Shown here in pieces: positions 59,684 to 59,798 of a DNA stretch of 64,000 bases. The stretch lies in IMG/VR virus record IMGVR_UViG_3300010224_000007, one strand, 5' to 3'. The translations under genes were made by a program, and so were the position numbers. Source of the DNA: a virus. Below the pieces are notes generated by a model. It ran no database searches. It was not told where the DNA came from and was given only the letters and a program-made list of their open reading frames with translations. How positions within the stretch are numbered: the stretch's first letter is position 1; every line of letters begins with the position of its first letter.

Positions 59684-59798
59684 TGGTAGGGGTGGCTGGA
59701 TTCGAACCAGCAGTGTGGGCGTTGCTCCCGCCTGTGTCTTCCAGGATGAATGGCTCCCAGCTAATTCGCCTGCCATCACCGCTTTTCACCACACCCCT
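59684..59798 (-). ncRNA. 115-nt tRNA-shaped RNA with non-canonical interior
   Basis: Perfect acceptor stem AGGGGTG/CACCCCT, T arm GCTGG-TTCGAAT-CCAGC, A73 plus CCA; no standard anticodon arm. Confidence 0.7.

What the first reader, a model, noticed from the sequence alone, without database searches (positions are those of the whole stretch)
59684..59798. 115-nt RNA with intact tRNA acceptor, T arm and CCA but a rebuilt interior
Seen: perfect 7-bp acceptor stem, canonical TTCGAAT T loop, A73 and encoded CCA. The interior has a stemless D-like loop (TGGTGAAAAGCGGTG) and can form ATGGC/GCCAT with an extended inner helix, CCTG-GAAGACA-CAGG, and a further short hairpin. There is no 5-bp/7-nt anticodon arm and no G3-U70. 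Inference: intact ends argue for selection on the tRNA elbow and acceptor, as in a decoy, primer or aminoacylated non-decoding RNA. A tRNA with a removable insert is also possible given nearby RtcB.
Basis: partly seen in the sequence, partly recalled or inferred. Interest (0 to 1): 0.65.

Follow-up and report, generated by a model that had tools for sequence, protein, structure and literature searches.

The report
Phage tRNA mimic with D-loop hairpin
A soil-type bacterial virus encodes an RNA that keeps the whole upper half of a leucine tRNA but has a 41-base hairpin grafted into one corner and a loop that cannot read codons; the same design recurs in about 35 other phage sequences, I found no description of it, and it probably serves as a decoy or a processing signal.

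Summary
Real, minus strand, 59798-59684, but the interior is not as first read. With acceptor and T arms fixed, the best fold has a leucine-type D stem (GUG/CAC). A 41-nt hairpin sits in the D loop between A15 and G18G19, and a 4-bp/7-nt arm with G33 sits where the anticodon arm belongs. Deleting the insert leaves a 77-nt cloverleaf. The E. coli leucylation elements are present (A73, A15-U48, G18G19, A20a). Pattern scans found 36 distinct RNAs with this architecture, nearly all phage. In unfiltered hits the acceptor pairs 7/7 in 36 of 53 (controls about 1%). The inserts are usually hairpins, and few members have a normal anticodon arm. This copy carries the same 3' trailer hairpin as the neighbouring tRNA-Asn. 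There is no orthologue in 13 related phage records, RtcB is not linked to the class, and no Rfam family fits beyond a weak tRNA match. Closest known: T4 RNA C, function unknown. Best guess: a free non-decoding decoy (0.4). Main rival: an RNase P processing or leader element (0.28). Expression is untested.

The parts
59684..59798 (-). 115-nt tRNA-shaped RNA gene (RNA position n = window 59799 - n)
59792..59798 (-). acceptor stem, 5' strand (A1-U72 first pair)
   Evidence: 7/7 Watson-Crick with 59688-59694
59784..59791 (-). U8 G9, D-stem 5' strand G10 U11 G12, then A13 A14 A15
59743..59783 (-). 41-nt insert in the D loop at positions 16/17; hairpin 59780-59745 (9-bp outer helix with one bulge, 3-bp inner helix)
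   Evidence: -12.5 kcal/mol, z only about -0.7 on its own; Rfam skips this part
59734..59742 (-). G18 G19 A20 A20a G21 A22 and D-stem 3' strand C23 A24 C25 (tRNA-Leu pattern)
59718..59732 (-). anticodon-position hairpin: 4 bp and a 7-nt loop with G32 G33 (nominal triplet AGC)
59712..59717 (-). short variable region ending in U48 (partner of A15)
59695..59711 (-). T arm, 5 bp and canonical loop (U54 U55 C56 G57 A58)
59684..59694 (-). acceptor 3' strand, discriminator A73, encoded CCA
59667..59681 (-). 3' trailer hairpin; the same motif follows tRNA-Asn (from 59975) and tRNA-Cys of a related provirus; only these two copies in the genome
59805..59950 (-). context: two tandem rotated tRNA-like units (T arm, closed acceptor hairpin, D arm) followed by a U run; the same layout occurs in Sphingobium phage Lacusarx
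59978..60053 (-). context: canonical tRNA-Asn(GTT)
60296..60600 (-). context: two-piece alphaproteobacterial tmRNA
56531..57928 (-). context: RtcB RNA ligase gene, 1.75 kb downstream; not linked to this RNA class

Best explanation
It is a non-decoding tRNA mimic released as a free RNA. The phage transcribes it with its small-RNA cluster (inferred). Host RNase P and 3' trimming mature it like a tRNA because the 12-bp acceptor/T helix and the elbow are intact (inferred from known RNase P substrate rules). It folds into a Leu-type L shape with a hairpin projecting from D-loop positions 16/17 (secondary structure computed; tertiary fold inferred). The G32 G33 loop cannot make the U-turn needed for decoding, and the hairpin probably hinders ribosome entry (inferred). 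It may be leucylated, since the E. coli LeuRS determinants are present and need no anticodon arm (untested; the insert could block the synthetase). Its likeliest job is to occupy host proteins that recognise the tRNA acceptor end or elbow, such as tRNA-attacking defence toxins, while offering no normal anticodon loop to cut. That last step is a hypothesis. Confidence that it is a non-decoding, tRNA-shaped RNA under selection is about 0.8; the figure below is for the free-decoy role.
For: Constrained MFE gives the D-loop-insert fold and deleting the insert gives a 77-nt cloverleaf. Identity elements A73, A15-U48, G18G19, A20a, G18:U55, G19-C56 and U54:A58 are all present; anticodon and long variable arm are dispensable for E. 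coli leucylation (PMC9976931). Class: 36 of 53 unfiltered pattern hits have a 7/7 acceptor in register, against 17 of 1745 cross-paired controls. Acceptor pairs 1-6 each take 4-5 different pair types among 36 members. Inserts fold better than shuffles (median z -2.5; 30 of 41 below -1). U48 is kept in 36 of 36 although not in the pattern, and only 3 of 36 pass a canonical anticodon-arm test. This copy has encoded CCA and the tRNA-Asn trailer hairpin, and lies 127 nt from the next ORF. It sits among a tmRNA, a tRNA and two anticodon-less units. Phage tRNAs are known counters to tRNA-targeting defences (PARIS commentary PMC11455837 listed; details from my own knowledge).
Against: No expression or charging data. 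No orthologue in 13 related phage records. The nearest architecture (L259) is only marginally alike in the interior (z 2.4, best of 40). This copy's insert is not more stable than shuffles (z -0.7) and a rival fold is within about 1-2.5 kcal/mol. The Leu-type D arm of the class was imposed by my pattern, U48 tends to follow A15, and A73 is not clearly enriched over canonical tRNAs in the same loci (25/32 vs 100/146). Many class members sit just before an ORF, which favours a cis role. No target protein is identified.
Confidence: 0.4

Rival explanations
1. Cis-acting processing or leader element: the tRNA shape is an RNase P / 3'-nuclease signal that cuts the phage polycistron, or a stable 5' cap for the downstream mRNA. 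The middle is free to vary because only the acceptor and elbow are measured. It can coexist with the decoy role.
For: 14 of 32 D-loop-hairpin members (44%) and 28 of 82 of the broader class (34%) end within 30 nt of an ATG ORF, against 19 of 146 canonical tRNAs (13%); Fisher p 2e-4 and 3e-4. L259 lies between two genes, 12 nt before a DNA polymerase gene, with no tRNA nearby. Only 14 of 37 members have a canonical tRNA within 1 kb.
Against: The test is inflated: members are not independent and canonical tRNAs sit in arrays. This copy is 127 nt from its next ORF with several hairpins between, has encoded CCA and the tRNA trailer, and that ORF is frameshifted. A processing signal does not explain the hairpin insert.
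Confidence: 0.28
2. Relic: a tRNA-Leu-derived gene that gained a hairpin insertion or duplication and is now neutral in this phage.
For: No orthologue in relatives. The insert is not unusually stable. The adjacent TAXI gene carries a +1 frameshift. Tandem duplications of tRNA-Leu 5' halves produce look-alike patterns in bacterial genomes.
Against: All 12 acceptor/T pairs are Watson-Crick; D stem, U8/A14, A15/U48, G18G19, T loop, CCA and trailer are all intact while the anticodon loop alone is non-canonical. The insert contains no second D-arm start, and the same insertion site recurs in 36 distinct RNAs.
Confidence: 0.15
3. Pre-tRNA with a removable insert, cut by a nuclease and sealed by the phage RtcB, giving a 77-79-nt tRNA.
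For: RtcB lies 1.75 kb away. Insert removal gives a cloverleaf. Low-threshold ARAGORN offers Leu(UAG) with a 36-nt intron. A few class members (L230 group, L244) keep a normal Leu(UAA) anticodon loop. Unexplained phage tRNA introns exist (Lak phages, PMC6784885).
Against: The D-loop-spliced product has G32 G33 and would still not decode. The anticodon-intron fold is about 11 kcal/mol worse, has a G-G mismatch in its D stem and was one of 253 low-threshold calls. I see no bulge-helix-bulge motif by inspection. RtcB is in 1 of 33 class records and 0 of 4 complete ones; none of 28 RtcB loci holds the pattern.
Confidence: 0.07
4. Working missense or frameshift tRNA: a Leu-charged RNA whose AGC triplet reads GCU, possibly helping ribosomes through the +1 break in the downstream TAXI gene.
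For: The first codon after the break is GCT in the +1 frame. Allo-tRNAs with mismatched identity and anticodon do decode (PMC5389517).
Against: G33, a 4-bp stem and a 41-nt D-loop insert. No four-base match to the shift site. GCT is common (19 per 1000 codons). The TAXI homologues found are full length and not next to such RNAs.
Confidence: 0.03

Closest known systems
Phage T4 species 1 RNA (rnaC; also rnaD)
   Same: Small stable RNA in a phage tRNA cluster. By my reading of its sequence rnaC has a canonical T arm, a 7-nt 3' strand able to pair as an acceptor stem and no anticodon arm. Function unknown (PMC9697503, PMC3014915).
   Different: No sequence similarity seen. rnaC has no Leu-type D arm or D-loop hairpin and is 139 nt; rnaD has no canonical T arm.
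Bacterial class II tRNA-Leu (Rfam RF00005) and minimal LeuRS substrates
   Same: 7/5 acceptor-T helix, 3-bp D stem, A14, A15-U48, G18G19, A20a, A73.
   Different: 41-nt hairpin in the D loop, no long variable arm, no U33, no Leu anticodon.
Allo-tRNAs (Mukai et al., PMC5389517)
   Same: Irregular cloverleaves, some in alphaproteobacterial phage clusters, some apparently not used in translation.
   Different: Allo-tRNAs have 8/4 or 9/3 branches, a long variable arm and a long D stem with a tetraloop; this RNA is 7/5 with a short variable region.
YrlA-type Y RNAs (PMC4201824)
   Same: tRNA elbow mimic; one member is cut by RNase P and receives CCA. The two upstream units have the YrlA order of arms.
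   Different: This RNA is in normal, not rotated, order with an open acceptor; the genome has no Ro60/TROVE gene.
Intron-containing phage tRNAs (Lak megaphages, PMC6784885)
   Same: Phage tRNA genes longer than normal because of an insert.
   Different: Those are assigned a tRNA type and anticodon once the insert is removed; here the product has G33.

Membership tests
Canonical decoding tRNA | 7-bp acceptor, 5-bp T stem, canonical T loop, NCCA | tested here: met
Canonical decoding tRNA | D stem with a D loop of about 7-11 nt | tested here: not met
   3-bp stem present but about 52 nt enclosed
Canonical decoding tRNA | 5-bp anticodon stem, 7-nt loop with Y32 U33 | tested here: not met
   4 bp; G32 G33
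LeuRS substrate (E. coli rules) | A73, A15-U48, G18G19, A20a, G18:U55, G19-C56, U54:A58 present in sequence | tested here: met
   sequence against PMC9976931
LeuRS substrate (E. coli rules) | Tertiary elbow forms and the RNA is charged | not testable with these tools
   competing fold within 1-2.5 kcal/mol
tmRNA tRNA-like domain | G3-U70 and a tag reading frame | tested here: not met
   G3-C70; Rfam finds the tmRNA elsewhere, at 60296-60600
Allo-tRNA / tRNA-Sec type | 8/4, 9/3 or 8/5 branch and long variable arm | tested here: not met
   7/5 branch, 6-nt variable region
YrlA Y RNA | Rotated arm order with closed acceptor, adjacent Ro60 gene | tested here: not met
   normal order; no PF05731 in the genome; no Rfam Y RNA hit
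RtcB-spliced intron tRNA | Insert removal restores a canonical anticodon loop; linkage with RtcB | tested here: not met
C4-type antisense tRNA-like RNA | Loops complementary to phage target mRNA | tested here: not met
   longest genome matches 10-12 nt, no more than shuffles; no second match for the L259 interior in its 47%-complete record
T4 species 1-like stable RNAs | T arm plus acceptor, no anticodon arm, in a phage tRNA cluster | tested here: met
   likeness of kind, homology not shown
T4 species 1-like stable RNAs | Accumulates as a discrete stable RNA in infection | not testable with these tools
   no expression data

The most novel reading that the evidence does not exclude
Phages widely use a leucine-chargeable tRNA top half as a natural scaffold, with two variable cargo slots (D-loop 16/17 and the anticodon position). 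The aminoacylated, ribosome-excluded RNA neutralises tRNA-targeting host defences or presents the hairpin to a partner protein. This would be a new class of RNA-based counter-defence and would explain T4 RNA C.
Probability: 0.2. Interest if true: 0.8.

Novelty: new variant of a known kind. Interest (0 to 1): 0.5.

Why it matters
Standard tRNA finders miss this RNA or miscall it as an intron-containing tRNA, so phage genomes hold an uncounted set of tRNA mimics. A recurring natural hairpin graft at D-loop 16/17 gives a defined, testable handle on the long-open question of what tRNA-like stable RNAs such as T4 RNA C do. It also points to a D-loop site where tRNA scaffolds may tolerate 20-45-nt cargo. 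Members occur in named Chryseobacterium genomes (L329; L370 matches the same pattern), so the class can be tested in culture.

Tried and rejected
BLAST of the cluster and of the RNA against phage isolates gave only T-arm or tRNA-Asn hits, plus the Lacusarx D-arm hit. Exact 3'-end pattern returned ordinary tRNAs. The single metagenome scan with the 5' motif returned two chance juxtapositions with normal tRNAs. RtcB, TAXI and DNA-polymerase relatives gave no orthologue. No second assembly of this phage could be fetched, so a one-base error cannot be excluded; one extra G would make the anticodon-position stem 5 bp but leave G33. No sigma-70 promoter was found on the minus strand. Antisense-guide, Ro60 partner, anticodon intron and frameshift-suppressor readings were tested and found wanting. 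The repeated 6-mer CAGGCG inside the RNA is at chance level by my estimate. Genome-collection hits with a second D-arm start in the insert were removed as tandem duplications, and six mis-parsed hits were dropped. The 36/36 pairing counts are partly circular because pairing was a filter; one search is the unfiltered test. Rfam on 20 class and chain loci showed no family for these RNAs other than weak tRNA matches. Literature searches found no description of D-loop-hairpin tRNA mimics; most subscription papers are not searched, and the Larkin 2002 paper was not held.

Full report
Setting. The window lies in an 81,188-nt virus record whose ends overlap. Its DNA polymerase is 49% identical to that of Caulobacter phage Seuss, and it carries an integrase, rIIA/rIIB and RtcB. 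The feature is the last member of a minus-strand small-RNA cluster: two-piece alphaproteobacterial tmRNA (60296-60600), a folded spacer, tRNA-Asn (59978-60053), two rotated tRNA-like units (59805-59950), then the 115-nt RNA.

Observation. The ends are as described: 7/7 Watson-Crick acceptor, 5/5 T stem with canonical loop, A73, CCA, no G3-U70. Only four perfect T arms exist in the genome, all here. The Rfam tRNA model scores it 30 bits by skipping 45 nt inside the D loop. Default ARAGORN misses it.

Anatomy. I compared three folds. With acceptor and T arms fixed, the minimum-energy structure (-40.5 kcal/mol) pairs G10-U11-G12 with C63-A64-C65. The segment just before that 3' strand reads as G18 G19 A20 A20a G21 A22, the tRNA-Leu pattern. 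After the D stem comes a 4-bp/7-nt arm, a 6-nt variable region ending in U48, and the T arm. Deleting the insert gives a 77-nt cloverleaf that ARAGORN draws at lowered threshold, with G32 G33 in the loop. The anticodon-intron fold offered by low-threshold ARAGORN scores -27.2. So the D stem is the best reading but needs probing.

Identity. According to the review PMC9976931, E. coli leucylation depends on A73, A15-U48, G18G19, A20a, G18:U55, G19-C56 and U54:A58, and survives loss of the anticodon and variable arms. All of these bases are present. Whether the insert allows charging is unknown; from memory, LeuRS contacts the D loop near position 16, so it may interfere.

Relatives. No orthologue was found by BLAST, exact patterns, neighbouring genes or whole-record searches of 13 related phage records, seven of them with 56-63% identical polymerases. 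A relaxed pattern instead exposed a large class of 97-180-nt viral RNAs with acceptor, Leu-type D arm and T arm but variable middles. A pattern demanding 18-48 nt between A15 and G18G19 returned 67 viral stretches and, with slightly different spacing, 105 genome stretches. After removing tandem duplications of tRNA 5' halves and mis-parsed hits, 41 RNAs remained, 36 after removing near-duplicates. The acceptor was not part of the pattern, yet 36 of 53 distinct viral hits pair 7/7 in register, against about 1% of cross-paired controls. Inserts of 19-46 nt fold better than shuffles (median z -2.5). U48 is invariant, and only 3 of 36 pass a canonical anticodon-arm test. Caveats: the D-arm type and A15 were imposed by the pattern, and A73 is not clearly more frequent than in ordinary tRNAs of the same loci. 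L259 (117 nt, 42-nt insert, 23-nt middle, CCA) is the closest in build, but its interior similarity is marginal (z 2.4, best of 40). Selection is therefore shown for the class, and only inferred for this copy.

Context of this copy. A 15-nt trailer hairpin follows both this RNA and tRNA-Asn, occurs nowhere else in the genome, and follows tRNA-Cys in a related provirus. This suggests the phage treats the RNA as a tRNA gene. The next ORF starts 127 nt downstream and is a frameshifted TAXI gene. Across the class, 44% of members end within 30 nt of an ORF against 13% of canonical tRNAs, which supports a cis role for many members, though less so here.

Alternatives tested. RtcB occurs in 1 of 33 class records, many of them fragments, and none of 28 RtcB loci holds the pattern. 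There is no Ro60 gene. The interior has no complement in the genome beyond chance. The AGC triplet matches the GCT codon after the TAXI break, but G33 and the insert argue against decoding.

Mechanism. Shown: sequence, predicted fold, identity bases, recurrence of the design, lack of linkage to RtcB or Ro60. Inferred: transcription, RNase P maturation, L-shaped fold, exclusion from decoding. Hypothesis: a free decoy for proteins that recognise the tRNA acceptor or elbow (0.4); processing or leader element (0.28); relic (0.15); spliced tRNA (0.07); decoder (0.03).

Comparison and novelty. It works like the anticodon-less stable RNAs of phage tRNA clusters; T4 rnaC has a T arm and an acceptor-like pairing and no known function. 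It fails the defining tests for canonical tRNA, allo-tRNA, tmRNA, YrlA and intron tRNA. Rfam has no family for it. A large survey of viral structured RNAs mentions tRNA-like candidates without this design in its main text (PMC10690425), and my searches found no paper on D-loop-hairpin mimics. Earlier notes of this scan describe the broad class on other DNA; they are unchecked and not independent support. I rate it a new variant of a known kind, interest 0.5.

Noticed in passing
window 59805-59950 (-): Two tandem rotated tRNA-like units with closed acceptor hairpins. The same layout with compensatory changes is in Sphingobium phage Lacusarx (L005:3943-4090), and related D-arm/T-arm chains are in L022, L045, L047 and L009.
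   Followed up: partly
window 58693-59557 (-): TAXI-family solute-binding protein gene split by one extra base in a CCGGG run near 59290; homologues of 281-290 aa are whole and common in related phages. Real break or assembly error is unresolved.
   Followed up: partly
window 60438-61094 (-): Free-standing endonuclease gene (PHROG 3322/1035) whose frame runs into the 5' piece of the tmRNA gene; its position recalls SegB in the T4 tRNA cluster.
   Followed up: no
window 47192-47250 (-): 5' half of tRNA-Thr(TGT) next to an integrase (47296-48339): attP-like site carrying the 5' half.
   Followed up: no
window 60055-60296 (-): Strongly folded 240-nt spacer between tmRNA and tRNA-Asn, ending in a small minihelix-like hairpin; no Rfam match at the gathering score.
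   Followed up: partly
L123, L182, L139, L218 and about 80 other viral loci: Arrays of 97-180-nt RNAs with a near-constant acceptor, a Leu-type D arm and T arm but unrelated middles; six in L123 alone share one acceptor sequence. A1-U72 is enriched: 47/82 against 14/146 in canonical tRNAs.
   Followed up: partly
L230:3843-3948, L258, L260, L244:3813-3928: tRNA-Leu(UAA)-like genes with a normal anticodon loop and a 21-32-nt D-loop insert; possible ancestral or still-decoding form of the class.
   Followed up: no
L447:1480-2580 (-) (related provirus with the closest RtcB): Its own cluster of odd tRNA-like RNAs with shrunken D arms and a T-arm-bearing RNA of about 270 nt, different from the window's set; the cluster content turns over between relatives.
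   Followed up: no
L005:4080-4125 and 4460-4550: Unannotated acceptor-T minihelix, and an RNA with an Asn-type anticodon arm but an expanded 5' part, in the Lacusarx tRNA cluster.
   Followed up: no
window 59789-59795 and 59712-59718 (-): RNA positions 4-10 can also pair with 81-87 (7 bp with one G-U), an alternative to the acceptor stem; may be chance.
   Followed up: no
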